This document shows, piece by piece, positions 27,520 to 62,837 of a DNA stretch of 64,000 nucleotides. Under the pieces are notes generated by a model that ran no database searches, was not told the origin of the DNA, and was given only the letters and a program-made list of their open reading frames with translations. Source of the stretch: a virus; IMG/VR virus record IMGVR_UViG_3300027869_000006, positions 1 to 64,000 of that record. The stretch is one strand, 5' to 3'. Numbering within the stretch: the stretch's first letter is position 1; each line of letters opens with the position of its first letter. The position numbers and the translations under genes are program-made.

Positions 27520-28641
27520 ATGGCACTATCAGAAGAGCATCGGTGCAAAATCTCAGAGGCTAATCGGGGGCAAAAGCGATCTGAAGAGACAAAGCGCAAG
27601 ATGAGGGAAGCGAGAAAAGGGAGAACCTATTCAGAAGAATCGCGCCGCAAGATGAGCGAGACACATAAGAAGCTTCCTGGTCATCCGCATACTGAAGAAG
27701 AAAAGCGCAAGATCAGCGAGGCCAATAAGCGAGAGAACAGGGAAGTTCCAAATAAAGGATGGGCTAACCATACGATATCTGAGGAAGGCAAGCAGAGGAT
27801 TCGAGAATCAAAGTTAGGGAAGAAGCGAGCTCCTTTTTCAGAGGAATGGAAACGCAAGATTAGTGAATCTCAGAAAGGGCACATGGTTTCTTCAGAAACA
27901 CTTCAGAAACGTCAAGCGACACGAGCCGCACATGGAGCCTATGAGACATTACGACAAAGTGCTTATAGGATGGGGAAAGCCAATCAAGGAAGAAAGCCAA
28001 CTGAGGAAGTCAATCAAAAAAGACGTGAAGCGTCACTGCAACTCGCAAGTGATCCTGAACACTTGGCAAAGATCAGTCGAGGGGTATTGAAAGCCTATGA
28101 AAATCCAGAGTTTCGAGCACGGAATCGGCAGATACTCGATGAGGCACGAGCGAAGTCAGTTGCAGCGATAACGGGTGTACCTCTCTCAGAGGAGCGAAAG
28201 GCCCGACTCTCGGAAACATCAAGAAAAGCGAGGCTTGAATACTGGAAAGACAAGTCATATGAAGAACGTCTCGCTTATATGCACACTGCGACAGTAGCCT
28301 CAGAGAATATCAGAATATCTTCTCTAGAGTTGCAAGTCAAAAAGTTGCTTGATGCGATGGGTATTCAATATGAGCAACAAAAGCAGATAGGAATGTACTG
28401 GGTTGATTTCTATCTACCAGCAATGAATACAATTGTAGAGGTTTACGGGTGTTGGTGGCACGGATGCGAACAATGTGGGAAGGCATATCCAAAGAAAAAT
28501 GCTCGTGATCGAAGTCGTGAAGCCTATATCAAGGCATGTGGGTATCAACTTGTCATCCTTTGGGAGCATGACCTTGTAGAGAATATGGAGTGGATGCAGT
28601 ATAATGGTAATGAGACAGACAGCGCTACCAGAACGGATTGA
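27520..28641 (+). CDS. free-standing homing-type endonuclease: NUMOD3 repeats plus Vsr/DUF559-like nuclease
   Basis: Repeated SEE.(K/R)RK(I/M)SE; C-terminal VDFYL..IVEVYGCWWHG..RD..GY..LWE; AT-rich; own promoter TTGACT-N18-TATACT at 27445-27474. Confidence 0.85.
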   Translation: MALSEEHRCKISEANRGQKRSEETKRKMREARKGRTYSEESRRKMSETHKKLPGHPHTEEEKRKISEANKRENREVPNKGWANHTISEEGKQRIRESKLGKKRAPFSEEWKRKISESQKGHMVSSETLQKRQATRAAHGAYETLRQSAYRMGKANQGRKPTEEVNQKRREASLQLASDPEHLAKISRGVLKAYENPEFRARNRQILDEARAKSVAAITGVPLSEERKARLSETSRKARLEYWKDKSYEERLAYMHTATVASENIRISSLELQVKKLLDAMGIQYEQQKQIGMYWVDFYLPAMNTIVEVYGCWWHGCEQCGKAYPKKNARDRSREAYIKACGYQLVILWEHDLVENMEWMQYNGNETDSATRTD

Positions 28642-30421: not shown

Positions 30422-33400
30422 ATGGCAGGGAGCGACTTTTCTCTTGGTACGGCCTCAATTGGACTTGGGGTGAATACTGATGGATTAACCTCCGGGTTTG
30501 CGCGTGCCAAGGAGATGGTTGGGAGTTTTGGCGGTGCCGTCGGCGGACTACTGATTGGTGCGACCGTCGCAGCCGTTGGGCTAGGCGCTGCGACGGTCAA
30601 GATGGCAGGTGATTTTTCCGCATCTATGACCCAACTCGTGACGGGTGCTGGCGAATCACAATCCAACCTCAAACTCGTCTCCGATGGTATCCTCCAAATG
30701 GCCGGGACGACCGGCACCTCGACCAAAGACCTCGCAGCAGGTATGTATCTCATCGAGAGTAGCGGCCAGCATGGTGCACAAGCCCTGACAACGCTCCAAG
30801 CCGCCGCCGAGGGCGCAAAGGTAGGTGCAGCCTCGCTCGCCGAGGTTGCCAATGGCGTGACCACCATCATGACCGATTACGCCAGTGCGAATGTGACCGC
30901 CGCCAATGCCACCAATGCCCTCATCGAGGGTGTCGCGCTCGGCAAAGTCCACCTGGGTGACCTCTCTACTTCGATGGCAACCGTACTTCCTACGGCCTCC
31001 GCGCTTGGGATCGGACTCAATGATGTGATCGGGGCCATGTCCACCATGACCGCCGAAGGGGTTCCTGCCGCCAATGCCGCCACCTACTTGCGGCAAACCA
31101 TGATGTCCCTCGAAGCCCCGGCCAGTGCGGGGGCCAAAGCCATTGCTGCCATTGGACTGACGACCGCACAAGTTAGCGACGAGATGAAGGTCTCTCTCCC
31201 CGGTACCTTGCAGATGATTATGGATCACCTGGCCGCGACGTATACGGTCGGGTCCCCGCAATATATTGAAGCCCTCAAAAATATCGCCGGGGGGTCGAAG
31301 CAGATGCAAGGGATGCTCGACCTGACGGGGACGCACCTGGCCATTTTCAAGGATGATGTGCAAGCCGTTGCCGATCAAGTGAAGGCAGGCGGCGATCAGA
31401 TTGCTGGCTGGACGCTGGTCCAGGGCGACTTCAATCAGAAGATGGATGAGGCAAGAGGGGTCATCGAAGCCCTTGGCATCAAGATCGGGTCGGTACTTTT
31501 GCCGGTGGTCTCGCAACTGATGGGGTGGTTGACCCCGATGGTTTCCACGATTGGAGATCATCTGGTCGGGGATGTGACCAACCTGGCCGATGCCTTCCAG
31601 TCCGTCTTTGATCCGATGAGCCAGGTGCAGAGCGTGGCTAAACCCCTGGCCGATACCTTCGATCATGACGCAGCAATGGTGGACAACTTGACTGGAGCCA
31701 TGAACCCCTTCCAGCAAGCCATGTTCAATCTCAAGCCGGACCTCGCGGATATCGGCGGGATGTTCAAGACGGTCGGCGATGTCGTCTTCAACCAGGTCAT
31801 TCCAGCCGTGGTGGGGTTGGCCCAAAAAGTTGAGCCCATCATCACCGATTTCTTCAACTGGGATGAGAAAACCCACTTCATCAGTACCACCCTACACGAT
31901 CTGGGCGGGTTCGTGAGCGCCGTGGCCGGTGATATCGGCAATGACCTCGTCCCACCCATCAGGGCACTGCTCGGACATCTCGAGAACTGGCTTTCTTCTT
32001 CCAACATGATCCATGATGCCCTTGGATTCCTGGCAGGGGCGATTGGGGTTGTCTCCAGTGTACTGGGAACATTGATCGGCTGGGTTGGCGACTTCGTGGG
32101 GGGGCTGGAAAAGGGCAATCCCCTGGCGGTGGCACTTGGCATTGCGCTGGTGACGGTTGGCACGGCTATTGCGGGTATCAAGCTGACGGAGTTTGTGCTT
32201 GGGCTCCAGAACGCCTTTACGCAGGCTGGCGGACTCAGCGGTATCCTGGAGAAATTTATCAGTGATACCTTCCCCAATCTCGCTCGCTCCCTCGGCCTGG
32301 TCAAGACGGCTGAAGTTGAGGTCGGAACCACCGCCGAAACGACGATGGCCGAGGGAGTGGCCACGGGGGCGACGGCGGCAGAGGCTTCCCTCGCGGGTAT
32401 CGGTACTACTGCCGAAACCACGATGGCTGAAGGGGTCGCTACGGGGGCGGTAGAGTCAGTAACTTCGCTCGCGGAAGTCGGGACACAGGCAGAGATCACC
32501 GCCGATACCGTCAAGACCTCCTCACTGAGTATGGCCGCATCCATTGGCTTGATTGGGGGCGCGATTGGACTCGTCCTGGTTGCTATCCCGCTCATCCAAC
32601 AAGGGCTCGCTGCCACCAAACAGAATATGGATGATACCGCCAAAGGCTTGAGTACGCAGATTGATGCCGCTGCCTCCAAGATTCATGACTCCTTTATCCC
32701 GGAAATAGCGAACGTCAATACCATGTCGGTGGCCCAGATCAGTGACATGAAAGCGAAGATCGTCAGTGAATTGGAACAAATCACCGGCAAGAGTCAGAGT
32801 GATGCCGAAAAAATGGCGAATGACTGGATTTATGGGACACAACAAATGCAGACCCAGGTGTCTGCCAATCTTGCCACCATGTCACAGCAGGCCATCCAAT
32901 CCGCGCAGCAACTCGTCAGTGGCGTCGAGCAGGCCCTCGCACAAATGCAGACCAATTCCGCCTCTGATATGGAGAGCATGAAGGAAGGCATCACCTCAGA
33001 ACTGATCTCAACCTACCATCTCTCCTATAGCACCGCGACCCAGATGTCAAGCCAGTGGAGCGCTGAACTGCAAAAGATGCAGAATGCCTCCCCGCAGCAG
33101 ATGGCCAGTATGCGCCAGCAGATGATTGATGAGCTTCAGAAAACGCTTGGGCTTTCCACCCAGGACGCCACGAACATGGCCGATCAGTGGATTGCCCAGG
33201 TCATGCGTGAGAAAGATCAGACCACCTATAACGTCATGCAACTGCATGACCAGGTTGCCCAACAACTCCAAGATACCGAGCACCTTTCAGCCTCAGCGGC
33301 GTCATCGATGGCCGATCAGGTCATTGGATCAGTCCAACATATGAAGGATATGGGCATCTCCGATACCGTCGCCATGAAGATTGCCATCGCGGAGGTCATG

Positions 33401-33865
33401 CAACAGATTACGGGCAATGCCCAGACATGGGGCGCGGATATGCTCAATGCCTACGCGGCGGGCATTGAGGCACAAATCCCCAACCTCCAACAATCGGTCG
33501 GGCAAGTCGCCCACCTGGTGCAGGCCAATCTGGGGTATTCCCTGCCAACGGAAGGAGTCCTGGCACACTCCGATGAGTGGATGCCTGACTTCGGCGACCT
33601 CCTTACACAAGGTCTGCTTGCCCAACAGCCAAAGATCAAGGCTGCCTCATCGGTGCTTGCCACCGCATTTGCTCCCCTGTTTCCTTCCGGGGGTCCTCTT
33701 CTTCCCTACCTTCCATCTATTGGAGGATACCAGGCAGCTCAGATGGCCGCCTCGAGTGGAGCAGGCGGGGTCATTGAAAATCATGTGTACATCATCCTGG
33801 ACAGCGAGCAGATTGGACACAGCGTGGTTCGCAATGCCCAACTACGGACAGGGATGAGGGTGTAG
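30422..33865 (+). CDS. tape measure protein (TP901 family)
   Basis: 1147 aa, Ala-rich helical, TP901-type core, central hydrophobic region. Confidence 0.9.
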   Translation: MAGSDFSLGTASIGLGVNTDGLTSGFARAKEMVGSFGGAVGGLLIGATVAAVGLGAATVKMAGDFSASMTQLVTGAGESQSNLKLVSDGILQMAGTTGTSTKDLAAGMYLIESSGQHGAQALTTLQAAAEGAKVGAASLAEVANGVTTIMTDYASANVTAANATNALIEGVALGKVHLGDLSTSMATVLPTASALGIGLNDVIGAMSTMTAEGVPAANAATYLRQTMMSLEAPASAGAKAIAAIGLTTAQVSDEMKVSLPGTLQMIMDHLAATYTVGSPQYIEALKNIAGGSKQMQGMLDLTGTHLAIFKDDVQAVADQVKAGGDQIAGWTLVQGDFNQKMDEARGVIEALGIKIGSVLLPVVSQLMGWLTPMVSTIGDHLVGDVTNLADAFQSVFDPMSQVQSVAKPLADTFDHDAAMVDNLTGAMNPFQQAMFNLKPDLADIGGMFKTVGDVVFNQVIPAVVGLAQKVEPIITDFFNWDEKTHFISTTLHDLGGFVSAVAGDIGNDLVPPIRALLGHLENWLSSSNMIHDALGFLAGAIGVVSSVLGTLIGWVGDFVGGLEKGNPLAVALGIALVTVGTAIAGIKLTEFVLGLQNAFTQAGGLSGILEKFISDTFPNLARSLGLVKTAEVEVGTTAETTMAEGVATGATAAEASLAGIGTTAETTMAEGVATGAVESVTSLAEVGTQAEITADTVKTSSLSMAASIGLIGGAIGLVLVAIPLIQQGLAATKQNMDDTAKGLSTQIDAAASKIHDSFIPEIANVNTMSVAQISDMKAKIVSELEQITGKSQSDAEKMANDWIYGTQQMQTQVSANLATMSQQAIQSAQQLVSGVEQALAQMQTNSASDMESMKEGITSELISTYHLSYSTATQMSSQWSAELQKMQNASPQQMASMRQQMIDELQKTLGLSTQDATNMADQWIAQVMREKDQTTYNVMQLHDQVAQQLQDTEHLSASAASSMADQVIGSVQHMKDMGISDTVAMKIAIAEVMQQITGNAQTWGADMLNAYAAGIEAQIPNLQQSVGQVAHLVQANLGYSLPTEGVLAHSDEWMPDFGDLLTQGLLAQQPKIKAASSVLATAFAPLFPSGGPLLPYLPSIGGYQAAQMAASSGAGGVIENHVYIILDSEQIGHSVVRNAQLRTGMRV

Positions 33866-33867
33866 AA

Positions 33868-36800
33868 ATGGTAGTTACCACAACAATTGGCTCAACCCCC
33901 GTCTCCTTGCTGAATGGTACGCCGCCAAGTCTGCATGATACGCTTGACCAACGCTCAACAATCCGTCTTGTGGTGATTGACAAAACAGGAACACTCCATT
34001 TTCAACCCATGCAACCCGTGACTATCACCGATAGTTACGCTGGTCGCCTGTTCACGGGCTACGTCAACGATGCGACGGAAACGAATCTCTCCCCGCAAAC
34101 CGCGATCACACATACTGTGACGTGTTTTGACCAACACTGGCTGGCCGATAAGCGCGTGGCATCCGGTGCCTCTGACGACGATGCCATGAGCAACCAGTAC
34201 GCTGGTGATAACGTCGTCTACTTGCTTGCGAACTACCTGGAAGCTGAGGGTGTCACGGCCTCGTATGCACAACGGCGCGAGAGTACGCTCACCGATTTTC
34301 AGGCAGGGACACTGACGAATGTGGTGGCGACCGACAACGTTGGTGATGGGGACCTGGAACTCTCGACGCAGGGGACGCCCGCAAGTACGACCTTTGGCAG
34401 TGGGTTCCGAGACTTTGTGACGGGCGCGACGCTCTCGAGTGTGGATTGCGCGGCAAGTGGGCAGCCCTTCTCGCAACTCAACCTGAAGGCATATAGCGCA
34501 CTCAAGTATAGCGGGACCAATGGCTCATCAAGCGCGGGCAATCTCGGCAATACCTACGCCTATTGGGAAGTGTGCAACGACGGCGCCACCGTGATTGCCT
34601 CGGGCGATACACTGCAATACGACGTGTGGATTTCCTCAACCAGTCCACTCATTCAAGGGGCCGTCGATTTCACCACCACCGATGGTATTGGCCTACGTGA
34701 CTTCCCCAATAACACGCAGGCAATGCATGACCAGAACTTTATCAAAGCGCATCCTGGCACCGATCTCTCCGGCTATGCCAACGATCAGTGGTATCACCGC
34801 ACGATTGATTTGACGCTCATGGCAGGCAAAACTATCTCGCACGTTGATCTCGCCTTTGAGGGCGATACCGGCGGCACGTACCTCGCCTATTTTCGCAACA
34901 TCTTCGTGTACAACAACAGTGGCGGCGTCAAGAAGACGGTCTTCGATAGCTCGCAACACGCCTATTCACCGCAACAACAGAGCATCAGTGGCAACTACCT
35001 GACGACTGATAATGGCTATACCAACCTCTCAGTGATGTTTGTGACGGTCTATGACCAAGTGGGGACCTGGATCAGTCCGGCTCTGAGTATTGATGCCGCC
35101 AAACTGGTGCGGGCAAGCCTGCTCAGTTGGACAACGAGCATGGCGGCGACCACAACTGCCGCGAGTCTTGCCAGTGGCATGGCTTCCCCCAATGTGCCTG
35201 CCGGTACTACGCTCACCTTGTACACGAGCATCGACAATAAGGCGACGTGGCAGGCAGCAACCTTTGAGTCTCCCATTCCAAATCTCTCTGGTGGCTTCAA
35301 CGTGACCAATAGGAGTATGTACGTCAAGGCGGTATTCGCCATCGCCAACCCAAGTCCTGAACTCTCACCGATCCTCACCGCTTTGCAAGCGACCGTTTCG
35401 AGTTCCTGGTCGCAAGTGAAAACCGATAGCATCACGACCGCAGGAGTCCAGGGAGATTTCAACACCGGCAACTATACGAATACCGCCTGGTATAGTGACC
35501 CGGGTGGGGCAAATACGAACCTCTTTCCATCGACTGATGTGGGTGTCACGCTCTCCGGCTATTGGACGGGATGGGATCGGCCTGATGGCACGATTGGCAA
35601 TGTGACGATCTATACGGCCCTTGCCACCACGAATGTCTATACGTGGTATCGGCAACTCAACATCTATGCGATATCCGGCGGGGATATCCGCGTGAAGCTC
35701 AACAATGCACCGAACCTGCAAAACTTTACGGCACAACTGAGTGTGGCTGTGCGTGAAGATGTGAGTCGGGAAAACGGCGTGGGTTTCGTGTATCGCACCA
35801 CGAACTGGGCCAATGCCAACGAGACGTGGGCCTATACGGTGATGCTGGAATTTAACGCGGGGATGGGTTCCACCTTTTCAGCCACGCCCTTTGTGCATGT
35901 GCAACTTGGACGGGCGAATAATGCCGGGACGACCACCGGGACCTATGTCAGTATTGCCGATGTGCTCCTCCCCTTTGTACCCAAAATCAATACCGTCTAT
36001 ACACTCAAAGTCGTCGTGAATGGGAACTCCCATAAGGTCTACGTCGATGACGTGCTGTGGATCAACGCGACCGACAGCACCTGGACAGCCTCCGGCGGAT
36101 TTGGCATTCGCTACTACAACGCCAGTGGGAATGGCTATACCGGCATCTATGACAACTTTGGGGTCGTGCAAAGTCTGTCCGGCCAATGGGATAACGGCTC
36201 AGGTATCGTCCTTGGCTCAGGCATTGGCACGGTCGGCAATTCCCTGGTTGCCTGGGATGCGGATGTACCGTCGGGTGGGACGCTCTCCGCGCTCACCAGC
36301 GTGGATGGTGGGGCTACCTGGCAATCGGCGACCAGTGGCAGCGCCATCCCCAACCTGGCACCAGGGACCAATACGGTGGGGAAATCCGTGCGGATCAAGT
36401 TCCTCCTTGGAGCCAACGCGCCCATTGTGACCCCCATTCTGAAGGGATGGACCATCTGGCTCACCAAACAAACCAACGCAGCAGGGAGCAGAGTCTCCCT
36501 TGGCCTTGACCTCTCAGCCGCCGGGCGTGCCGGGTCCACGCTCGTCAATTGGAATGGGGCAACCCCGCCTGGAACGAACATCTTCATCGATAGTGCGCCT
36601 GATAACACCACCTGGACGAACCTTGGCAGTGGCGCACAAGGCAACGCCCAAATCGCAGGCATACAGAGCCAACTCGACCCGATAGATGATACCTTTGACA
36701 GCAATACGAGTGGCTTCTATGTCTCGACCTTCCAGACCAATGGGACCACCGCCACCTGGGACTTCTCGACGGCGGTGCCTGCCACCTCATATATCAGTGC

Positions 36801-52719: not shown

Positions 52720-55700
52720 ATGACCGCGCTCACGACGAACGGTTCGGCACAAGCGGCAACCACGCTCGCTGCTGCTGGCAAGATGTTTGCGGCGACGGGT
52801 GGGACGGGTGGGAATACCTCAACCAAGGTCGCCAAGAACACGACCTATGTGCAGATATTTGCCATTGGTACGACGACGACACAAGCGGGGGTCGGGAGTA
52901 TCCCTGCGCCGACGGATAGCAATTTCGCGGGTTGGATATGGGATGTGACGACCCTTGAAGGGCAGCGCATCGCGGCGGGGACCTGGACGCCGACCTTCCA
53001 CATGCTGGCCTCCTCTGCCGGCACGATTACCCCGACCGTCCAATGGTTCAAACGGTCATCGGCGGGTGTGTATACCTCCATTGGATCGGTCACCGGGTCC
53101 TCGCTCGTGCTCACTTCTTCCGCACAGGCACTTACCTTCACGCCCCCGTCCCTGGCACTCATGGACTTTGCCGTGGGTGACAAGTTCTGCATGTGGTTAT
53201 GGGTCGATATTACCGTGGCCGGTGGGAGTAACTCTGGCACGATGTCGGTCGTGGAGGCGATCAGTGGGAGCACCACGGGTACCGCATCAGAGGCTCAGGC
53301 CGTCACACCGGGGTACGCCCCATCGCCAGTAGCACTCACGGCCACGCTTGCAGGAGTAGGGACGCTCTCATCGTCGTGCTATCGCACCACGATCCTGGCC
53401 GATAACCCGCTGTACTACAACCGCGCTGGCACGGCTGACTTGGGAAGTCTGGGACATACCGCCACCATCCACGGCGGCGTCACGACCGGGCAGGCAGGCC
53501 TCCTGGTCAGCGATGTGCAGTCAAGCGACCTCTTTAATGGCTCGACCGGCTTTCTCACCGCGTCAGATACGGGGTTGCCGACAGGGGCCAGTCCGTGGAG
53601 TATCGAGATATGGATACAGTCTACCAATTTAACAGGTGACCATTCTATTCTCGACTTTGGGACAAGTTCGGGACTCAATTGGGCGGGTATCTATAGCGCC
53701 GCCGATCAATTCGTGGTGGGATCGTGGGCAAGCGGAGTCAATGCAAGTGCGCATGGCATCACGACTGGAACGACGTACTACGTCCTTGGCACATTCGATG
53801 GCACGAACACCTCCCTGTACGTGGGCAATCTCTCGACAGGGGCATTCAGTACCTACGGGCCTGTCGCCATCGCGTTCAGTGTCGTGCTCTCTGGTCTCAC
53901 CATTGGCGCAGATTCCGGTGGCGCCTATATCAGCGGGAATGCGCAAGAACGCGCCATCTATGGCGCAGCACTCACCGTCACGCAGGCAACGGCACACTTC
54001 CTTGCTGGCATCCAGGCGTTCACCCTCTCAACTGCGCTCGCCGACACCCTTGCTGGCGTGGGGACACTCACCGGGACGCTGTCGTTGTTAGGAGTAGCAC
54101 TCACAACGACAGCGGCCGGGACTAGTCTTCTGACCGTCTCTTCCCCAACGCTTGCCACCGCGCTCACGACGACAGAGGTCGGCAGTGGGACGCTTACCGG
54201 GACACTGTCGACCTCATTGACCCTGGGCGGTGCCACTGCCACCGGCGGTGGCACGCTTGCCGGCACGTGCTCGCTCTTCACGGCCCTCTCTATGACGATC
54301 ATACCGGGTGCGGGCATCCTCACCCCAACGATGAAAGCCGCCTACACGCTGAGTGGGGGCACACTCACCGGGTCGGGAACGTTGTCGGTCTCCGCCCCGA
54401 CTCTTGCGACAGCCCTCGCGGTCGAGTGCGATGGGGTGAGCAATCTTACCCCAACCATGATCGCGAGTTTTACCTTATCCGGTACCACGTTGCCAGGCAT
54501 CGGTCAGCTTTCCATCTCCGCACCATCCCTTACCACTGTACTGGCAGGTGAATGTGACGGGAGTGGAGCACTGTCCGGGCAGCTTGACGCTACCTACATG
54601 ATGAGCGGTGGCACGATGGATGGTATGGGGCAACTGTCCGTCACGGTCCCCACACTCACAACAGCACTCTCCGTTGAATACGATGGGGTTGGGATGCTCT
54701 CACCGACCATTTGGGCGAGTCTCTCGCTCGCTCTTACAGAGATAGATGGCATCGGTATGCTCTCTGTCGCTGCGCCTGCACTCACGCCGCCGCTCATGGT
54801 GGAATGTGATGGGATTGGAACGTTCTCCCCTACACTCTCGGCTTCGTACACACTCTCCGGTGCGGAAATGGATGGAGTTGGCACGCTCACGTGCATCACC
54901 AGCCTCTCGGCTGCACTGGCGGGTGAATGCGACGGCGTCGGGGCATTTCAGGCGACGCTGTCGGTCTCAGGGAGCAGTATCGCGCTGTCAGCTGAGTGTG
55001 ACGGGGTTGGGACGCTTGTGGGCACGCTCTCCGCGACGGTTGCACTTGCGATTGAGTGTGACGGTAGCGGGACGCTTTCGGCCTCGCCTTCCCTCTCCAC
55101 GGCACTCATGAGCGAATGTGGTGGGGTGGGTCGGCTTTTCGCCATAGTAGCAGTGACCACCGCACTTGCAGTCGAGTGTGATGGCATGGGGACCTTCACC
55201 CCGATACTCGAGGCATCCGTCCCGCTCAACCTGGCACTCACTGGAAGCAGTGCGCTCTTCCCCACGCTCTCACTGACGACCATTCTTTCCGTCAGTCTCG
55301 CGGGTGAGGGGATACTTGCCGGGACGCTCTCACTGCTGACCGCTCCACTGGGTATGACGCTTGCCGGGACTGGCACACTCGCAGCCACGCTTGAAGCATC
55401 AACCGCCCTGACCGCGCTCATTTCAGGCAGTGGGCAGCTTGCCGGAACGCTTGCACACATCACGGCACTCGCCTGTCTGTGCGCGGGAGTGGGCACACTT
55501 ACCGGGACATACTCACTCTCGGTTGCACTGTTCCTCACGTGCGCCGCTCGCGGGACGTTCGCCTTCATGGTCATTTCCAGGACGGGTGTGCTTGCCCAAG
55601 GCAGGAGTGGAAGTGGAACAGCGACAGGTCAAAGTGGAGTGCCTGGCGTGAGCAGTATCGGTGGGAGTGCTACGGCTCGTGGGCGCGATGGGAGTGAAAC

Positions 55701-57330: not shown

Positions 57331-57382
57331 GTGAGAGAGACCTCCCTTGACAACCACGTACAATGGGAAGAAGGAGAGAAGT

Positions 57383-58426
57383 ATGCCTGATTACCCCCTG
57401 GCTGAGGAACACTTTGTACCTCGATCATATATGTTCGATAGCAATGCATGCAAAGTTTTGGTAATTCACAAGACGGGTGGAGACGCAACCCCTGCGGCGA
57501 TCCTTCAAACGTTTCTCACGAACCCGGATCGACCATCGGTCCATTATGGCGTAGGCACAGATGGGAGTATCTGGCAGTACGTCCCTGAAGCACTCGGCGC
57601 GGGCGGGAACTGTTGCGTGGAACCGGGCTATGACCCATTCTGGGCACAATTTAACCCGATGGCTGTTGGGTCATCTTCTGGAACCAACCTGAATACAGTC
57701 ACACTCTCTCTTGAGCATTGCGATGCGGCACTTGACAATAGTACGCCACTTACCCCAACTCAGCAAGATGCGAGCTTCAAACTCATTGCCTACCTGGTCG
57801 CCAAGTATAGCATCCCCCTTTCACACATCAAGGGCCACAATACAATTGACCCACAGAGTCGCGCCCGTTGCCCAGGTAACTACCCCTGGCCCGCGTTATT
57901 TGCCTATCTACAAAATGGAGGGAATATGGCAGGAGTACCAATCGGCTGGCAATACGACCAGGCGACGCAAACATTGACGGACCCCAACGGTGGGAAGGTA
58001 GGTCCACCCTATAGCGCACACGTGTTAGCAAGTAACTGGGACCCGCATAACTTTCTTTGGATCGCCGCCTACCATACCAATCAGCTGGAAGCAGCGAACC
58101 CTGGCCTGGGTGCGGGGACACAAATCATCTTCTATGAGTCCATGCTGTGCGTGCCTGATAATCCCCCAGACCCGAACCTTGCGAACCTGAAGGGAAAAGT
58201 GGTCACGGAATATGTCGGGATTGAAGCGGCCTATGCCCGTAGTCAGTGGACCCGCTATTCGGGAATAGCCCAACAGTTTCAAACACAATTCACAGAGGAG
58301 CAGACAAAAAATACGGCCCTGACTGCCCAAGTCGCACAACTGGAAGCACAGATCGCCGCGCTCTCCCAACCCACGGCGGATGCACAGGCGATTGTGCAGA
58401 TCAAGCAGATTGTGGCGGCGCTATGA
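57383..58426 (+). CDS. endolysin, N-acetylmuramoyl-L-alanine amidase (Amidase_2) with C-terminal coiled coil
   Basis: VIHKTGG, SVHYGV, SLEHC, GH..IDP..R.RCPG. Confidence 0.88.
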   Translation: MPDYPLAEEHFVPRSYMFDSNACKVLVIHKTGGDATPAAILQTFLTNPDRPSVHYGVGTDGSIWQYVPEALGAGGNCCVEPGYDPFWAQFNPMAVGSSSGTNLNTVTLSLEHCDAALDNSTPLTPTQQDASFKLIAYLVAKYSIPLSHIKGHNTIDPQSRARCPGNYPWPALFAYLQNGGNMAGVPIGWQYDQATQTLTDPNGGKVGPPYSAHVLASNWDPHNFLWIAAYHTNQLEAANPGLGAGTQIIFYESMLCVPDNPPDPNLANLKGKVVTEYVGIEAAYARSQWTRYSGIAQQFQTQFTEEQTKNTALTAQVAQLEAQIAALSQPTADAQAIVQIKQIVAAL

Positions 58427-58560
58427 AGTGGTTTTTCAGATGGGTCCATCAAGTGATGTCTTTGTTACACAAGAGGCGCAGCTATAGCGAAACGATCCTG
58501 GCTGAGAAGCCGATCCGTTACTATCGACTCGATGGAAGTGACACAACACGTGAGCAATGA
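58423..58560 (+). CDS. small ORF carrying a LamG N-terminal remnant
   Basis: YSETILAEKPIRYYRL resembles YRTTILADNPLYYNR in the 52720 product. Confidence 0.4.
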   Translation: MKWFFRWVHQVMSLLHKRRSYSETILAEKPIRYYRLDGSDTTREQ

Positions 58561-59275
58561 AGAGTGCAAACTGATTGCATACCAACTCTATGATGGTGAT
58601 CTCCCCATGCAAATCGTTCCGGCACCGCGCAAACGGCAGTGGATGGATCAGACGCCACAGAGTTTTGCGAACCGTTGCCTCCCGCTCTTACTGGGAAATG
58701 CGAGCGGCTGGTGGCTCTTGAACACGCACGAGATACAGGTGACCTGGAACGGCGGCACTGATCTCTCCGCGCTCACCATCGCGGGTCGGGGTAGTTCGGA
58801 GACCGGCTATGCACTGAGCCATTTTGGTAACGGTCTCTTAACTTGGAATATTCCCCTGCTCTTTTCCACGCCCCCTGGATATAATTTGCTGGTACGTGGC
58901 CCTGCAAACTGGCCCAAAGACGGGGCATACGCACTGGACGGGCTTGTGGAGACAGATCACGCTGTGGCGACATGGACCATGAACTGGAAGATGACGCGGC
59001 CTGGCCTGACCGTCACCTTTGCCAAGGGCGAACCGATAGCACAAATCGTGCCACAGAAGCGTGGAGAACTAGAGACATTCACCCCGCAAGTACGGAACAT
59101 CAGAGAGGCACCAGAGTTACAAGCTGCATACAATGCGTGGGCATCTAGTCGCTCAACATTCAATATGGAACTGAAGAGACCAGGGTCAGAGGCAGTGAAG
59201 CGGCAATGGCAAAAGGATTACTTCCAAGCATCCCATCAAACAAAGGTCGCATTGAAGGAGTTCACAACTCCATGA
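58532..59275 (+). CDS. DUF6065-like protein
   Basis: R.WMD.T...FANRCLPL, SHFG.G, GPANWPKDG, VETD, WQKDYF. Confidence 0.75.
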   Translation: MEVTQHVSNEECKLIAYQLYDGDLPMQIVPAPRKRQWMDQTPQSFANRCLPLLLGNASGWWLLNTHEIQVTWNGGTDLSALTIAGRGSSETGYALSHFGNGLLTWNIPLLFSTPPGYNLLVRGPANWPKDGAYALDGLVETDHAVATWTMNWKMTRPGLTVTFAKGEPIAQIVPQKRGELETFTPQVRNIREAPELQAAYNAWASSRSTFNMELKRPGSEAVKRQWQKDYFQASHQTKVALKEFTTP

Positions 59276-59311: not shown

Positions 59312-59896
59312 ATGGCAACGACACCGACAAAAACCCCGAAGCAGCAAGCCTCACTCGCAGGCGTCTGGCAGGGCATTGAGGCACCAATCATCGGTATCCT
59401 CCTCTCCCTTGCCGTAGCTATTCAGCAGTATTTTAGTACCCATAGTGCCCCAAATTGGGGAGAACTGGGAATGATCCTGTTCCCGACCGTCATTGTTGGT
59501 ATTGTGCAAGCACTCAAGCAGTTCAATGCAACACTCGGGCAGGCATCAGTTCCCATCGTCACCGTCCCGCCGCCCGCACCGGTTGTCTCACCATCCGACA
59601 TTGCGGCAGCGATACGACAGCAGGTACCAGGACTGGTCATACAACAGCCACCGGCACCACCGTCGTTCATTGCGCCGTCAGTGCCACCAGGAGGATACGA
59701 TACGACGCTGGTCCAACCCCTCTCATTCGCCCCTCTGACCACGCCTGCCCAGCCACAACAACCGTACACGTGGTCACAGCCAGAACCATCCCCGACACTC
59801 ACGACACCTGCGCCAGTAATTACGCCGGTATTGTCACTGCCAAGTACGTTTCCGCAAACACTCGATTTACCAATCGTACGACCACAAATTGAGTAA
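59312..59896 (+). CDS. putative holin-like 2-TM protein with Pro-rich tail
   Basis: GGAGG RBS; two TM segments; near endolysin. Confidence 0.6.
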   Translation: MATTPTKTPKQQASLAGVWQGIEAPIIGILLSLAVAIQQYFSTHSAPNWGELGMILFPTVIVGIVQALKQFNATLGQASVPIVTVPPPAPVVSPSDIAAAIRQQVPGLVIQQPPAPPSFIAPSVPPGGYDTTLVQPLSFAPLTTPAQPQQPYTWSQPEPSPTLTTPAPVITPVLSLPSTFPQTLDLPIVRPQIE

Positions 59897-59897
59897 T

Positions 59898-59935
59898 AAT
59901 AAAGGGTACTACATCTGCATGTAGTACCCTTTATT
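59898..59935. terminator. bidirectional intrinsic terminator
   Basis: Perfect 17-bp IR AATAAAGGGTACTACAT-ctgc-ATGTAGTACCCTTTATT between convergent units. Confidence 0.85.
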
Positions 59936-59941
59936 CATCCC

Positions 59942-60129
59942 ATACCATACCGCATCCCGCCGGACTGCACCCCACCCAGCCTTGCCAGACATTACCCCGC
60001 ATCGCCACGCCTTACCCCACCGAACTACACCTTACCAACCAGACCATGCCGAACCCGACCGGACCACGCTATACCGTACCTTACCTTACTGAACCCAGCC
60101 AAGCCGGACCTCACCATACCTACCGTGCC
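59942..60129 (-). repeat. GGY-NN pentamer array C (38 units), putative guide RNA
   Basis: Minus strand GGCAC GGTA GGTAT GGTGA GGTCC GGCTT...; 5-nt period with two 4-nt slips. Confidence 0.9.
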
Positions 60130-60130
60130 A

Positions 60131-60349
60131 TTAAGCGTATCGTGTTTGGTCTGTCTCCCAGTTCACTAAACGTACAGGTGTCACATCTAAGTCTGTGATA
60201 GGAATGCCATACTTTTCTTCAGCTAAACTCAGTCCTTCCTGAGCATCACTAGCGGTTATCTCACCCACTATAGGCACCTGCTGCTTTCTTAGCTTGGCAT
60301 GCACGGTAGTGTCATGTCCCTTATACCAAACATCGAACCTATGCAACAT
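60131..60349 (-). CDS. 72-aa accessory protein coupled to the Cas7-like gene
   Basis: TAATG overlap at 60347-60351. Confidence 0.65.
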   Translation of the reverse strand: MLHRFDVWYKGHDTTVHAKLRKQQVPIVGEITASDAQEGLSLAEEKYGIPITDLDVTPVRLVNWETDQTRYA

Positions 60350-60897
60350 TACTTCACCTTTTCCCATGACACAAGAGCAAATCTCCCATACGGCCCTTTC
60401 TTTGCAGGACGGAAGTCACCAATGCCAACAAGTCGCCCTGCATCGGTGAGTATGTCACGGATAAGACGTTCACCAACTAGATCGGTATCAATCTGAACAT
60501 CAAACTCCATATTCCACTCATCGAACATTGGCCTGTGGCGTAGAATACGCCCCCCAGTCGCTTTAATGACAACAGCCCGTGAGTCCACATGCCATTCCCC
60601 TACCAGAGGAATTTCAAATGGGCTAACATAGACCCCTGCCGCTACATCAGTTGTCGCAGCCCTCCGTCCAATTTTGTGTCGTGATGCTGCTGCAATCATT
60701 GACTGCCGAATATTCTCAGCCGGATAGAATGGGCTATGTTCATTGGTATACAGGCGACTTGCCGCATCTTCATGAGGAGCCGGATATTCTTTCCGACCAT
60801 GTGTTCCTGAAGTTGCTTCCTCTGCCGCTGCCTCATGAAAACGATTCACGATGAGCGGCGTCAAACTCGTAATGTTGACCTTGTACGTTACAATCAT
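60349..60897 (-). CDS. minimal Cas7/RAMP-like protein (182 aa)
   Basis: YKVNITSLTPLIVN, YPAENIRQSM, RHRPMF..W, C-terminal G-loop GRLVGIGDFRPAKKGPYGRF; AAAGGA RBS before ATG 60897. Confidence 0.75.
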   Translation of the reverse strand: MIVTYKVNITSLTPLIVNRFHEAAAEEATSGTHGRKEYPAPHEDAASRLYTNEHSPFYPAENIRQSMIAAASRHKIGRRAATTDVAAGVYVSPFEIPLVGEWHVDSRAVVIKATGGRILRHRPMFDEWNMEFDVQIDTDLVGERLIRDILTDAGRLVGIGDFRPAKKGPYGRFALVSWEKVK

Positions 60898-60928
60898 GTG
60901 TGTTATCCTTTCTGTGTGAGTAACTTGT

Positions 60929-60960
60929 GTGGTGCCCTGCCCCAGTGGTAGGGCTACCAC
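60929..60960 (-). other. hairpin 3' of array B
   Basis: GTGGTAGCCCTACC-actgg-GGCAGGGCACCAC. Confidence 0.55.
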
Positions 60961-60977
60961 GCGAAACAAAATGAACA

Positions 60978-61161
60978 AAACCATACCAGACCGGACCTCG
61001 CCAAACCCGGCCTTGCCAGACCGGGCCTTGCCAGACCGGGCCAAACCCGACTACACTAGACCTCATCATGCCACACCTCCCATACCATACCCATCCTTAC
61101 CGAACTGCGCCAGACCGCAACGTACCAGACCGCGGCAAGCCGGGCCGGACCCAACCTAACC
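60978..61161 (-). repeat. GGY-NN pentamer array B (37 units), putative guide RNA
   Basis: Plus strand NN-RCC units AAACC ATACC AGACC GGACC TCGCC...; one 4-nt slip at 61078-61081. Confidence 0.9.
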
Positions 61162-61172
61162 TATTCCTCAGC

Positions 61173-61370
61173 AAACCATGCTATACCCCACCTGACCGTA
61201 GCACTCCTTCCAAACCGCACCATACCCAACCAAGCAGGACCCCGCGTCACCGCACCTGATCGGGCCATACCCCACCTGACCAAGCCGTGCCTACCTTGCC
61301 GCACCAAACCTCACCTCACTCAGTCTTGCCTCGCTGGACCTAGTCGCACCGAACCTGACCTTGCCGTGCC
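61173..61370 (-). repeat. GGY-NN pentamer array A (40 units), putative guide RNA
   Basis: Begins ATGGCACGG like array C; two 4-nt slips; 11-nt linker to array B. Confidence 0.9.
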
Positions 61371-62005
61371 ATAATCCTGCTATAGGCCAATTTCACGCAG
61401 AACTCAACGTCATTCCATACCTGGGAGCCAGTGAAGCGAAGAACGTACCAGCCTTGATCTTCAATCGTATGCTGTCGCATATAGTCTCTATTTCGGTCTC
61501 TCTTGTGACTATGGAACGCTTGCCCATCAAGTTCGATTACTATCTTTGCTTCAACATGGGCAAAGTCTACACGATACTTACTAATCCGATGCTGTCGCTC
61601 AAGAGGGATATCTGGATACAGCAGGCACCATGCTTCATAAAAGGCTTCCTCGATGGGACTTCCATTCTTGACGGATTGCTGAATTTCCCGTAAACGATTA
61701 CGAGCCTCATTAAGTGCAGCCTCACGTTGTTGATTAGCAAGTCGCAAGGCTTCTACTCGCTCTGCTTCTAGTGCTTGACGACGTTCTAGGGCCTGCTCTC
61801 GCTTCTCCCGAATGGTTGCTACTTCAATCTCTCTCTGGACAGATTGCTGATGCTCATTCGCACGACGCTTCAACTCCCTAGCTTCCTGAATCATACTAGC
61901 TTTCTCTGCCGCAAGTTGACGTTGTATGGCAAGTTCATGCTCTCTGTCAGCTTGAAGTTTTCGTTGTTGTTCTTGATAGTCGTTGAATGCTTGCCAGTCC
62001 ATCAT
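61340..62005 (-). CDS. coiled-coil plus DUF559/Vsr-like PD-(D/E)XK endonuclease
   Basis: SPIE..QHRISKYRVDF..IVIELDGQAFH..RD..R..GWYVLRFTGSQV. Confidence 0.85.
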   Translation of the reverse strand: MMDWQAFNDYQEQQRKLQADREHELAIQRQLAAEKASMIQEARELKRRANEHQQSVQREIEVATIREKREQALERRQALEAERVEALRLANQQREAALNEARNRLREIQQSVKNGSPIEEAFYEAWCLLYPDIPLERQHRISKYRVDFAHVEAKIVIELDGQAFHSHKRDRNRDYMRQHTIEDQGWYVLRFTGSQVWNDVEFCVKLAYSRIMARQGQVRCD

Positions 62006-62007
62006 GC

Positions 62008-62181
62008 TTATTGTTCTCGTTTTGTAGGCTTTTGCTGTTTCTGTTGTACTCGTTCTAATTCTTGGTTCGCTAAACGGTCAAGAAGACTCACGATACTCTC
62101 CCCTGTGATGGCATGAAGCATACGCAAGGTGGTAAGTGTCCTTGTCCAGATGCGAGTTGTTTTGTAGTCATCGGTAGCCAT
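62008..62181 (-). CDS. 57-aa ribbon-helix-helix-like regulator, leaderless (not in ORF track)
   Basis: MATDDYKTTRIWTRTLTTLRMLHAITGESIVSLLDRLANQELERV...; ATG at the predicted TSS. Confidence 0.7.
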   Translation of the reverse strand: MATDDYKTTRIWTRTLTTLRMLHAITGESIVSLLDRLANQELERVQQKQQKPTKREQ

Positions 62182-62187
62182 GAAGTT

Positions 62188-62216
62188 ATTTTACTACAAA
62201 CAAGTGTTCTTGTCAA
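62188..62216 (-). promoter_or_regulatory. consensus sigma70 promoter of the Cas7-like cassette
   Basis: TTGACA(62216-62211)-N17-TAAAAT(62193-62188). Confidence 0.8.
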
Positions 62217-62276
62217 GAGGAAAAGAAGACGCCCTTGACACAAGCATATACTAAGAGCAGAAGGGGGAATTTTTCT

Positions 62277-62837
62277 TTGGAACGCGGGTCCGTTATTCTT
62301 TTTGAGAAGGATGGCAGTCTCTTCAATTGGCTCATCACGAAAGCAACTCATGGTCCCTATGTCCATGTGGAAATTTGCCTGGGCGAGGAACGCCTGATCG
62401 GTGCTCACGGTAACCGTCGCGGCATCTATGAGCGTGATTGGGCCGATGCACCTTCGTTAGTGACGGAGGTCTCTCTCTCCCCCTATGCCGATGAAGAGCA
62501 CATCGAGCAGGCCCTTACCTGGGCGCAAGAGCAACAGGGGCATCCCTATGGATGGTGGGATATCGCCAGTCAGTCCATCAAGTTCTTGTGGCCAACGACA
62601 CCGCTCCGGTTCAGCAAGTCAGACGCATGGGGGTGTGCAGACTATGTGACCCGCTATCTGATACAAGCAGGGGTGGCCTTGCCAGAAGACTTCATGGACC
62701 CTGGGAAAAACTCGCCCAACGATATTGGACGGTTGTTCCATCTCGTTCCACAACGGCCACAACGCATCAGAAAACGGGAGAGAGAGTTGAGGAAAGGTCA
62801 TGCCATTGCCGCATTTGCCGCCTCCAGACGAGGATGA
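62277..62837 (+). CDS. permuted papain-like (YiiX/YaeF-type NlpC/P60) amidase/peptidase
   Basis: His before Cys: GPYVHVEI, GHPY, WGCADYV, SPND; TTG start after AGGGGG. Confidence 0.7.
   Translation: MERGSVILFEKDGSLFNWLITKATHGPYVHVEICLGEERLIGAHGNRRGIYERDWADAPSLVTEVSLSPYADEEHIEQALTWAQEQQGHPYGWWDIASQSIKFLWPTTPLRFSKSDAWGCADYVTRYLIQAGVALPEDFMDPGKNSPNDIGRLFHLVPQRPQRIRKRERELRKGHAIAAFAASRRG

What the first reader, a model, noticed from the sequence alone, without database searches (positions are those of the whole stretch)
59898..62216. Phage cassette pairing a minimal Cas7/RAMP-like protein with three GGY-NN pentamer arrays: candidate non-CRISPR RNA-guided system
Seen: one minus-strand unit with a consensus promoter (62188-62216), a leaderless RHH-like gene, a DUF559 nuclease, array A (40 units), an 11-nt linker, array B (37 units), a hairpin, a 182-aa gene, a 72-aa gene, array C (38 units) and a terminator. 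Each unit is a near-constant GGY plus two free bases, so this is not a microsatellite. Established: the 182-aa protein has the RAMP/Cas7 layout (N-terminal strand, 'P..NIR' helix, C-terminal Gly loop GIGDFRP..GPYGRF), and Cas7 polymerises on RNA with a fixed nucleotide step. Inference: each protomer holds one GGY and displays NN for base pairing. No cas1/2/3/5/6 or CRISPR repeats are present. I recall a recent report of similar phage loci ('VIPR') but cannot verify it here.
Basis: partly seen in the sequence, partly recalled or inferred. Interest (0 to 1): 0.96.

Follow-up and report, generated by a model that had tools for sequence, protein, structure and literature searches.

The report
Phage VIPR guide-RNA system with nuclease
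This soil-phage cassette is a real member of the VIPR family, a CRISPR-like RNA-guided DNA-binding system first published in 2026; here it is linked to a nuclease gene, and two of its guides spell variant versions of the two genes beside it.

Summary
VIPR systems (Vipr protein plus GGY/NN vrRNAs) are described in bioRxiv 10.64898/2026.04.26.720920, .720927 and 10.64898/2026.10.15.759431.

- **Protein.** The 182-aa protein matches the solved SUSP1 Vipr protein (PDB 36pp, E 6.6e-8). It aligns full-length with a Felixounavirus Vipr (hhalign 98.8%) and folds as a minimal Cas7/Csm3-like RAMP (Z 11.8). The GGY-binding residues are kept.
- **Arrays.** 113 pentamer units (G 88%, G 92%, Y 96%, NN free) sit only here in the 64 kb. 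156 of 188 related loci carry such arrays beside the gene.
- **Setting.** The host record is a 110-kb tailed soil phage with no Cas1 and no CRISPR array.
- **Array layout.** The arrays are continuous and 'staggered', in blocks of 16-20 units joined at -1 phase shifts.
- **Nuclease link.** A DUF559 nuclease gene precedes the array in all nine close relatives with upstream DNA.
- **Flank-gene guides.** Guides C1 and C2 decode, in codon register, to diverged versions of the two flanking genes. The same is seen in five nuclease-linked relatives and in none of eight nuclease-free ones.

No natural target and no RNA data were found. This scan has noted VIPR in over 330 other genomes.

The parts
62188..62216 (-). 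sigma-70-type promoter TTGACA-17-TAAAAT; the only promoter-like site found on this strand of the cassette
   Evidence: 11 of 12 matches; sequence
62008..62181 (-). 57-aa gene, probably leaderless, possible ribbon-helix-helix regulator; not conserved in relatives
61340..62005 (-). 221-aa protein: N-terminal Q/E/R-rich helical region plus C-terminal DUF559 (Vsr-like endonuclease) domain; candidate accessory (vap-like) nuclease of this subclade
   Evidence: Pfam DUF559 E 1.3e-15. Weak match to PDB 3hrl 'endonuclease-like protein'. Invariant D147, E158, D160, H165 in 8 orthologues. Same upstream position in 9 relatives.
60978..61370 (-). upstream GGY/NN array, five in-phase blocks: A1 61370-61292 (16 units), A2 61291-61207 (17), A3 61202-61163 (8, degenerate), A4 61161-61082 (16), B 61077-60978 (20); candidate vrRNAs
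   Evidence: junction statistics
60945..60960 (-). short hairpin between array B and the vipr ribosome-binding site; analogous hairpins of unrelated sequence occur in L029, L116 and L123
   Evidence: z -1.8, weak
60349..60897 (-). vipr: 182-aa minimal RAMP (single RRM core, thumb, glycine loop GIGDFRP..GPYGRF)
   Evidence: (phrog_4652)
60131..60349 (-). 72-aa ORF whose ATG overlaps the vipr stop codon (TAATG); it sits where SUSP1 has vap1, but has no homologues and no confident fold
59937..60129 (-). downstream GGY/NN array: C0 60129-60121 (2 units), C1 60120-60037 (17), C2 60036-59937 (20; its last three units GGTAT GGTAT GGGAT repeat the end of A4)
59898..59935 (-). 17-bp terminator hairpin followed by a U-rich run; it closes the cassette and also ends the convergent left gene
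   Evidence: dG -24.8 kcal/mol, z -6.0
62274..62321 (+). resident near-cognate of guide C1: the start (TTG at 62277, Shine-Dalgarno 62261-62268) and first 15 codons of the right-flanking 186-aa gene. 20 of 32 NN letters match and 14 of 16 second codon positions match.
59825..59863 (+). resident near-cognate of guide C2: the last codons of the left-flanking 194-aa membrane/proline-rich gene. 11 of 13 residues are compatible.

Best explanation
The cassette is a VIPR system carried by a tailed soil phage.

Shown here:
- The 182-aa protein is a Vipr homologue with the minimal RAMP fold and the GGY-contact residues.
- It sits between two same-strand arrays of GGY/NN pentamers, in one promoter-to-terminator unit.

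Inferred from the published SUSP1 and P. fulva work:
- The roughly 2.3-kb transcript is coated by Vipr, one protomer per 5-nt unit. Each GGY is flipped out and held by the glycine loop and thumb of neighbouring protomers, and each NN is displayed.
- The RNA is cut or trimmed into guides of about 80-100 nt. Here the likely boundaries are the -1 'staggered' junctions (consensus GGYAW-GGTW|GG).
- Each filament binds double-stranded DNA whose sequence reads NN-x-NN-x, forming an R-loop triplex that blocks transcription.

Specific to this clade:
- Shown: a DUF559 endonuclease gene is the conserved partner, placed directly upstream of the array.
- Shown: guides C1 and C2 are written, in codon register, against variant alleles of the two genes that flank the cassette. 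The resident copies are mismatched, largely through Ser/Leu codon-family switches and a TTG start.
- Inferred: the system acts on rival phages that carry the other alleles of this locus. The nuclease probably turns binding into cutting.
For: - Sequence: PDB 36pp_D 'SUSP1 Vipr protein', E 6.6e-8 over residues 110-174. hhalign of the clade profile against a Felixounavirus Vipr gives 98.8%, E 1.2e-16, 169 columns.
- Residues: SUSP1 R138, D177, W178, R179 and E71 correspond to R122, D161, F162, R163 and E61 here, invariant or nearly so in 39 homologues. H17 corresponds to N18, which is N or H across the family.
- Fold: AF2 pLDDT 87. Top matches are Csm3 and type VII Cas7, Foldseek E 1.6e-7 and VIA Z 11.8 over 156-160 residues.
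- Arrays.
- Association: 84 of 108, then 156 of 188, related loci have a same-strand array within 400 nt. 25% of flank bases are array against 0.3-0.4% elsewhere.
- Context: terminase, portal, capsid, tape measure and endolysin genes. No Cas1 and no CRISPR-like repeats.
- Junctions: 87 -1 boundaries in 13.2 kb of clade arrays, 76% GGTA/GGTT, spacing mode 84 nt. This fits the paper's 'staggered arrays'.
- DUF559 synteny.
- Guide C1 against 62274-62321: BLOSUM score 58, next best 39, shuffled-guide tops 36.5 +/- 2.6.
- Guide C2 against 59804-59863: the genome-wide top, local score 57 against 44 +/- 4.4, reached by 1 of 40 shuffles.
- Relatives: flank-decoding guides with z above 4 occur in L109, L110 (also L111 and L114), L112, L116 and L123, all with DUF559. 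None occur in 8 loci without it (148 tests, maximum z 2.9).
- Codon-family switches at shared Ser/Leu/Arg positions: 10 of 12, against 38% in orthologue pairs, P = 0.0016.
- No self-target under the 1-nt-skip rule, as the paper reports for its systems.
Against: - There is no RNA evidence. Only the source soil DNA run holds the stretch.
- No natural target reaching the paper's threshold (at least 80% NN match) was found for any of the seven guides. I searched the phage's own genome, 1.4 Mb of related loci, and exact 10-unit seeds in IMG/VR.
- No SUSP1-type pseudoknot tail is present, and no Rfam family or ribozyme, so guide boundaries are inferred from phase shifts only.
- The role of DUF559 rests on synteny alone.
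- C2's flank match is only marginal on its own.
- L029 and L030 have DUF559 but no flank-decoding guide.
- I could not read the paper's type tables, so the VIPR type is unassigned.
Confidence: 0.88

Rival explanations
1. The cassette is an RNA-guided homing or marker-exclusion element. Vipr-vrRNA filaments find the cassette-free or foreign alleles of the two flanking genes in a co-infecting relative. The DUF559 nuclease cuts there, and repair from the cassette-bearing genome copies the cassette and its resistant flanks into the rival. This extends the best explanation rather than replacing it.
For: - Both near-cognate sites lie within about 35-105 bp of the cassette ends.
- In relatives the decoded sites lie 135-540 bp from the cassette.
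- The cassette sits in different gene neighbourhoods in different relatives, and each time a guide matches the local neighbour.
- Flank-decoding guides are seen only where DUF559 is present.
- DUF559 keeps invariant acidic and histidine residues.
- Resident alleles differ from the guides by changes that a codon-register guide can see.
Against: - No allele matching any guide at 80% or more was found.
- No cassette-free relative of this locus is available.
- No nuclease activity or Vipr-DUF559 contact is shown.
- The DUF559-positive rows are not resolved as one clade, and the number of independent lineages is small, about four.
Confidence: 0.3
2. This is silencing only. The system represses transcription of rival elements as in SUSP1, and the DUF559 gene is an unrelated selfish or neighbouring nuclease that merely travels with the cassette.
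For: - The characterised type II systems silence without a nuclease.
- Guide C1 covers a gene start, the best place for a roadblock.
- DUF559 genes are common stand-alone phage genes (phrog hits).
Against: - DUF559 is in the same operon position, directly abutting the array, in 10 of 10 loci of the subclade where the upstream DNA is present.
- The array even overlaps its last codons.
- Guide C2 targets a gene's 3' end, a poor place for repression.
Confidence: 0.35
3. This is self-regulation. The partly matching guides bind the phage's own flanking genes and tune their expression during infection.
For: The best genome-wide matches of C1 and C2 are the resident flanking genes.
Against: - Resident matches are only 50-75% of NN letters, below the 80% used for target calls.
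- The paper reports that disturbing NN pairing abolishes silencing.
- The mismatches are enriched for synonymous family switches, the pattern expected for avoidance rather than use.
Confidence: 0.07
4. The pentamer tracts are plain G-rich microsatellite or quadruplex-forming DNA, or translated repeats, with no guide function, and the RAMP-like gene is a CRISPR remnant.
For: - Short ORFs run through the arrays.
- A 15-nt sub-repeat exists in block B.
Against: - The NN positions are near uniform while GGY is fixed.
- A 5-nt period cannot keep a reading frame.
- The arrays co-occur with the gene in 156 of 188 loci, on the same strand only.
- No CRISPR array or Cas1 is present.
Confidence: 0.02

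Closest known systems
VIPR systems (Vipr + vrRNA + vap); experimental exemplars are type II of Escherichia phage SUSP1 and a Pseudomonas fulva prophage (bioRxiv 10.64898/2026.04.26.720920, 10.64898/2026.04.26.720927, 10.64898/2026.10.15.759431)
   Same: - Homologous Vipr protein with the same fold and the same GGY-contact residues.
- GGY/NN pentamer RNA genes on both sides of vipr.
- Viral location, with no CRISPR array or adaptation genes.
- Codon-register relation between guides and coding targets.
- Lower match to self than expected for a target.
   Different: - About 25% protein identity to the SUSP1-family Vipr.
- Continuous 200-400-nt staggered arrays inside one operon, instead of discrete roughly 100-nt vrRNA genes each with a pseudoknot tail (compare).
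- The partner gene is a DUF559 nuclease placed upstream, not a DNA-binding vap1 placed downstream.
- The guides point at alleles of the cassette's own neighbours rather than at a satellite or prophage regulator.
VIPR 'staggered vrRNA arrays' and nuclease-bearing types III and V (same discovery paper, fig. S18 legend and text)
   Same: - Successive guides overlap by one base, seen here as -1 phase shifts about every 84 nt.
- A predicted nuclease serves as the accessory gene.
   Different: - The paper describes types III and V as enriched in cellular defence islands, names HNH among the accessory domains it illustrates, and describes single-vrRNA and ribozyme-spaced layouts.
- This locus is phage-borne, uses DUF559 and has no ribozyme.
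- Which type it falls in could not be checked, because no supplementary tables are held.
Class 1 CRISPR-Cas backbone subunits (Cas7: Csm3 of type III-A, type VII Cas7)
   Same: RRM core, thumb and glycine loop, and polymerisation on a guide RNA with periodic base flipping. Fold match Z 11.8.
   Different: - No second RAMP, no Cas5, Cas6, Cas10 or Cas1, and no repeat-spacer array.
- A 5-nt step with three bases flipped, instead of a 6-nt step with one.
- The target is dsDNA read with gaps.
Free-standing phage homing endonucleases (T4 Seg/Mob type), and TnpB/IscB 'cut the empty allele' retention
   Same: A nuclease gene sits between two conserved genes. The recognition sites lie in the neighbouring genes of relatives, and the resident copy is protected by sequence differences.
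   Different: Recognition here would be supplied by guide RNAs on a Vipr filament rather than by the nuclease protein or an omega-RNA. This resemblance is functional and inferred only; no cleavage, no cassette-free allele and no mobility has been shown.

Membership tests
VIPR | Vipr protein homologous to the characterised Vipr | tested here: met
   PDB 36pp_D SUSP1 Vipr, E 6.6e-8; hhalign 98.8%, E 1.2e-16, 169 columns against a Felixounavirus Vipr; phrog_4652, E 7e-17
VIPR | Minimal RAMP fold: single RRM core, thumb, glycine-rich loop, no second RRM | tested here: met
   AF2 pLDDT 87, pTM 0.80; Csm3/Cas7 at Foldseek E 1.6e-7 and VIA Z 11.8 over the whole 182 aa; G154, G158, G160, D161, R163 and P164 conserved
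VIPR | Residues that read GGY in SUSP1 Vipr (H17, R138, D177, W178, R179, E71) | tested here: met
   They correspond to N18 (N or H in the family), R122, D161, F162, R163 and E61. The M72, K33 and K82 equivalents are not conserved or not alignable with confidence.
VIPR | Tandem YNNGG (GGY/NN) repeats next to vipr on its strand | tested here: met
   113 units with G 88%, G 92%, Y 96% and free NN; unique in the window; 156 of 188 homologous loci
VIPR | vrRNAs of about 9-16 repeats capped by a conserved 3' tail | tested here: inconclusive
   Blocks of 16-20 units are bounded by -1 junctions GGYAW-GGTW|GG with spacing mode 84 nt. A short shared end GGTAT GGTAT GGGA occurs at A4 and C2. There is no SUSP1-like pseudoknot tail and no Rfam hit. 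This fits the paper's staggered arrays, but boundaries need RNA data.
VIPR | vrRNAs expressed and bound by Vipr | not testable with these tools
   No RNA run is listed for this DNA.
VIPR | Targets follow the 1-nt-skip (xNN) rule | tested here: inconclusive
   With skip 1 and codon register, C1 and C2 decode the flanking genes far above shuffled guides, and the same holds in relatives. No site with at least 80% NN match was found anywhere.
VIPR | Small locus with an accessory (vap) gene, without CRISPR array or adaptation genes, mostly viral | tested here: met
   Five-gene-sized operon. DUF559 is conserved with it. No Cas1 and no CRISPR-like repeats. Phage hallmark genes are present. Whether DUF559 is one of vap1-6 could not be checked.
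CRISPR-Cas class 1 (type III-like) | Repeat-spacer array and further cas genes (Cas1/2, Cas5, Cas6, Cas10) | tested here: not met
   No repeats with 40-90 nt spacing in 110 kb and no Cas1. Only the Cas7-like fold is shared. Other cas families were not searched one by one.
Free-standing homing endonuclease cassette | Presence/absence polymorphism, with a cleavage site in the cassette-free allele near the insertion point | tested here: inconclusive
   Guides spell variant flank alleles within about 100 bp of the cassette ends. No cassette-free or guide-matching allele was found: the right-flank protein has only 2 homologues, at 43-49% identity, and seeds gave 0 hits.
Free-standing homing endonuclease cassette | Active site-specific DNA endonuclease | not testable with these tools
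   A DUF559 domain with invariant D147, E158, D160 and H165 is compatible with activity, but activity is not shown.

The most novel reading that the evidence does not exclude
In this soil-phage subclade VIPR has been coupled to a DUF559 endonuclease to make an RNA-guided homing or marker-exclusion cassette. Its guides are written against the alleles of its own flanking genes carried by competing phages. The owner's copies escape through the only synonymous changes a codon-register guide can see, which are Ser/Leu family switches, plus an ATG-to-TTG start. Cutting at these sites would spread the cassette or exclude the rival's markers.
Probability: 0.3. Interest if true: 0.8.

Novelty: new member of a known kind. 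Interest (0 to 1): 0.5.

Why it matters
As a VIPR locus it adds a well-delimited example from a 110-kb soil phage, possibly of Ktedonobacteria: a 70%-identical Vipr lies in a Ktedonobacteraceae-labelled MAG. It shows the whole unit from promoter to terminator.

The parts worth a specialist's time are three regularities not stated in the main texts of the preprints I read:
- a DUF559 nuclease fixed upstream of the array in a phage-borne subclade;
- guides that spell near-cognate versions of the cassette's own neighbours, in at least four lineages and only where the nuclease is present;
- an excess of six-fold-codon family switches between guide and resident allele.

Together these make a testable case that VIPR can be used for allele-specific attack on sibling phages, perhaps homing. 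They also give a readable footprint of how an owner avoids its own gapped guides.

Tried and rejected
- Natural targets, all negative: the xNN scan of the phage's own genome and of 1.0-1.4 Mb of related loci at nucleotide level and at peptide level.
- Guides of relatives scanned against this phage gave nothing above null.
- Exact 10-unit seeds in IMG/VR gave 0 hits for C1, A1 and A4 and for two relatives' guides.
- Single-protein scans for relatives of the two flank genes in IMG/VR found none.
- The protein search found only two distant homologues of the right-flank gene.
- No RNA holder is listed for this DNA.
- Rfam gave no hit in 59700-62400, so there are no hammerhead-spaced arrays.
- The 72-aa protein has no Pfam, PHROG, PDB or Atlas lead, and its AF2 model has pLDDT 48, so no fold search was made.
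- The 57-aa protein's PDB hits to TAL effectors have no stretch that passes on its own and were discarded as repeat noise.
- Marginal peptide-level hits of A2 (36347-36397) and B (53511-53570) in the phage's own genome were reached by 2-3 of 40 shuffles and are not claimed.
- The supplementary tables of the discovery paper are not held, so the VIPR type and the list of vap families could not be compared.
Full report
**1. Observation**

- A TTGACA-17-TAAAAT promoter lies at 62216-62188 (11 of 12 matches). The ATG of a 57-aa ORF follows 7 nt after the -10 hexamer.
- The next gene encodes 221 aa with a DUF559 domain (Pfam E 1.3e-15).
- A long G-rich tract follows, then a 182-aa gene, then a 72-aa ORF whose ATG overlaps the preceding stop codon.
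- A second tract follows, and then a 17-bp hairpin with a U-rich tail (dG -24.8 kcal/mol, z -6.0).

The tracts have a strict 5-nt period. Dynamic-programming tiling gives 113 full units. Position 1 is G in 88%, position 2 is G in 92%, position 3 is C or T in 96%, and positions 4-5 are close to uniform. Across the whole 64 kb, windows in which at least half of one 5-nt phase is GG occur only here, and only on the minus strand.

The tracts are not uniform runs. They fall into in-phase blocks:
- A1, 16 units
- A2, 17 units
- A3, 8 units (degenerate)
- A4, 16 units
- B, 20 units
- C0, 2 units
- C1, 17 units
- C2, 20 units

The blocks are separated by phase shifts. Three of these are clean -1 shifts, where a 4-nt unit GGTA or GGTT is followed directly by GG. 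The first six units overlap the last codons of the DUF559 gene.

**2. What it is**

The discovery preprint defines Viral Interference Programmable Repeat systems as follows:
- a minimal RAMP protein (Vipr);
- RNAs of alternating GGY/NN pentamers (vrRNAs);
- usually one accessory gene (vap);
- a mostly viral location.

Its companion cryo-EM paper shows one Vipr protomer per repeat. GGY is held by H17, R138, D177, W178 and R179, with E71 and M72 of the next protomer. NN is presented to dsDNA, in which every third base is skipped.

The window's 182-aa protein belongs to this family.
- It hits the deposited 'SUSP1 Vipr protein' (PDB 36pp_D) at E 6.6e-8 over residues 110-174.
- A profile of 39 homologues aligns over 169 columns with the Vipr of a Felixounavirus of the SUSP1 family, at 98.8% probability and E 1.2e-16.
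- In these alignments R138, D177, W178, R179 and E71 correspond to R122, D161, F162, R163 and E61, which are invariant or nearly so. H17 corresponds to N18, a position that is N or H across the family.
- An AlphaFold model (pLDDT 87) matches Csm3 and type VII Cas7 over its whole length (Foldseek E 1.6e-7; VIA Z 11.8, rmsd about 4 A over 156-160 residues).

Relatives confirm the link between gene and arrays.
- In 108 loci from genomes and IMG/VR, 84 have a same-strand array within 400 nt of the gene. Arrays cover 25% of the flanking bases on the gene's strand, against 0.2% on the other strand and 0.3-0.4% further away.
- With 80 metagenome loci added, the count is 156 of 188.

The record itself is a 109,768-bp virus contig with terminase, portal, protease, major head, tape-measure and endolysin genes. 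It has no Cas1 and no CRISPR-like repeats. Rfam finds nothing in the cassette.

**3. How this locus differs from the characterised type II loci**

In the Felixounavirus locus each vrRNA is a separate roughly 100-nt gene with about 12 repeats and a conserved structured tail. Here the guides are packed into continuous arrays inside one operon.

In 13.2 kb of arrays from the close clade I counted 87 -1 junctions.
- The 4-nt unit is GGTA or GGTT in 76%.
- The preceding unit ends in AT or AA in 56%.
- The spacing between junctions clusters at 64-109 nt, with mode 84.

This fits the 'staggered arrays' that the paper mentions, in which the end of one vrRNA overlaps the start of the next by one base. 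A short shared end (GGTAT GGTAT GGGA) closes both A4 and C2.

The partner gene also differs.
- A DUF559 gene lies directly upstream of the array in all nine relatives with at least 65% Vipr identity whose upstream DNA is on the contig. These are L029, L030, L109-L112, L114, L116 and L123.
- It is absent from the 57-63% relatives, which instead carry long downstream arrays of up to 2.4 kb.
- Eight orthologues keep D147, E158, D160 and H165 invariant.
- In a Vipr tree the close clade is well supported. The DUF559-free loci form two supported clades, and the DUF559-bearing rows are an unresolved remainder.
- The 57-aa and 72-aa genes have no counterparts in relatives.

**4. What the guides point at**

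Under the published rule (non-target strand reads NN-x-NN-x) none of the seven guides has a site in the phage's own genome above shuffled-guide level. This agrees with the paper's report of no self-targeting.

Earlier notes of this scan suggested that array C spells the two flanking genes. I tested this independently. Each NN was turned into the set of amino acids it can encode as codon positions 1-2. All six frames of the 110-kb genome were then scored with BLOSUM62.

Guide C1, read antisense:
- Its best hit is 62274-62321, the TTG start and first codons of the right-flanking gene.
- The score is 58, against 39 for the runner-up and 36.5 +/- 2.6 for the tops of shuffled guides.
- 14 of 16 second codon positions agree, but only 20 of 32 letters overall.

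Guide C2, read antisense:
- Its genome-wide best hit is the last codons of the left-flanking gene, with local score 57.
- Shuffled tops are 44 +/- 4.4, and 1 of 40 shuffles reaches the observed score.
- Its three unmatched 3' units are the shared AT-AT-AT end.

Both sites lie within about 35-105 bp of the cassette ends.

The same test on relatives gave strong hits in five loci:
- L116, z 9
- L110, z 8 (L111 and L114 are near-copies)
- L112
- L123
- L109

In L110 the target is the start of the gene after vipr, where the resident has TTG and the guide spells AT. In L116 and L123 it is a holin-like gene beside the endolysin. L116 and L123 share the same guide but have different resident alleles.

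With long blocks split into 16-unit windows:
- every locus with z above 4 carries DUF559;
- eight DUF559-free loci gave a maximum z of 2.9 in 148 tests;
- L029 and L030 carry DUF559 but are negative.

Resident alleles match the guides at only 50-75% of NN letters. At positions where guide and resident can encode the same Ser, Leu or Arg, 10 of 12 use the other codon family. The rate in equally diverged orthologue pairs of vipr and DUF559 is 38%, giving binomial P = 0.0016.

No allele that matches a guide at 80% or more was found.
- The right-flank protein has only two homologues, at 43-49% identity.
- Exact 10-unit seeds of five guides gave nothing in IMG/VR.
- Guides A1, A2, A3, A4 and B have no assignable target.

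**5. Mechanism**

*Shown here:*
- family membership of the protein;
- the arrays and their association with the gene;
- the single promoter and terminator;
- the conserved DUF559 partner;
- the flank-gene relation of C1 and C2.

*Taken from the published work on SUSP1 and P. fulva systems:*
- filament assembly with one protomer per pentamer;
- GGY sequestration;
- gapped pairing with dsDNA and R-loop triplex formation;
- transcriptional silencing;
- a role in conflicts between phages and other mobile elements.

*Inferred:*
- processing at the staggered junctions;
- action on rival phages carrying other alleles of this locus;
- self-avoidance of the owner by recoding;
- use of DUF559 to cut bound DNA.

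The boldest reading is RNA-guided homing or marker exclusion, which I put at about 0.3. Silencing only, with DUF559 as a fellow traveller, is at least as likely. Self-regulation is unlikely. A non-functional repeat is excluded for practical purposes.

**6. Comparison and novelty**

The locus meets every VIPR criterion that sequence can test. RNA expression, binding and targeting remain untested.
- It is not a CRISPR-Cas system: there is no array, no Cas1, and a single small RAMP.
- Its VIPR type could not be assigned, because the paper's tables are not held.
[quoted passage not shown] A phage-borne DUF559-linked subclade may or may not be covered there.

I therefore file it as a new member of a known kind. 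This scan has already noted VIPR loci in more than 330 other genomes, including one other cassette read as aimed at a neighbour's allele. Those are unchecked AI notes and do not count as support.

**7. Verdict**

The locus-specific regularities give moderate interest.

Noticed in passing
window 60986-61042: Inside block B a 15-nt (three-unit) segment, GGCCC GGTCT GGCAA, is repeated about 3.8 times (TRF score 86). GGTCA GGTGG GGTAT occurs in both A2 and A3. The arrays seem to grow by local duplication of whole units.
   Followed up: no
window 27520-28641: A 373-aa ORF inside the structural module matches homing-endonuclease/HNH PHROGs (E 3e-10 to 2e-7). It is a second candidate selfish nuclease in this phage.
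   Followed up: no
window 32322-32474: A 78-nt tandem duplication (2 copies, 76% match) lies inside the tape-measure gene (30422-33865).
   Followed up: no
window 10-135 and the last 126 bases of the 109,768-bp record: The last 126 bases of the contig repeat positions 10-135. This suggests terminal redundancy or a circular assembly, although IMG/VR classes the record as linear and CheckV estimates 85% completeness.
   Followed up: partly
L017 4871-4955 -> L181 ~5776 and L095 ~1810; L009 4906-4970 -> L095 ~1232 and L004 ~4213: In the distant (about 40% identity) Vipr clade, guides of one locus match ten consecutive NN units perfectly in the DNA just upstream of vipr in other loci (local score 20, against a shuffled maximum of 18). 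This looks like cross-targeting of relatives' VIPR neighbourhoods. Only 120 of 430 guides were scanned.
   Followed up: partly
L128 6606-9005; L127 6551-8160: DUF559-free relatives carry very long downstream arrays (2.4 kb and 1.6 kb, i.e. hundreds of pentamer units), with stretches of more than 40 units without a phase shift.
   Followed up: no
window 58532-59275: A DUF6065 protein (Pfam E 8e-84) sits between the endolysin-like gene (57347-58426) and the proline-rich membrane protein that guide C2 spells. It is possibly part of the lysis module.
   Followed up: no
L004-type loci (about 17 relatives), 0.7 kb downstream of vipr: A 564-aa superfamily-2 helicase-like ORF recurs downstream of vipr in 17 distant relatives. 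It is possibly the helicase-type vap of the paper, or simply the phage replication module. No family search was run on it.
   Followed up: no
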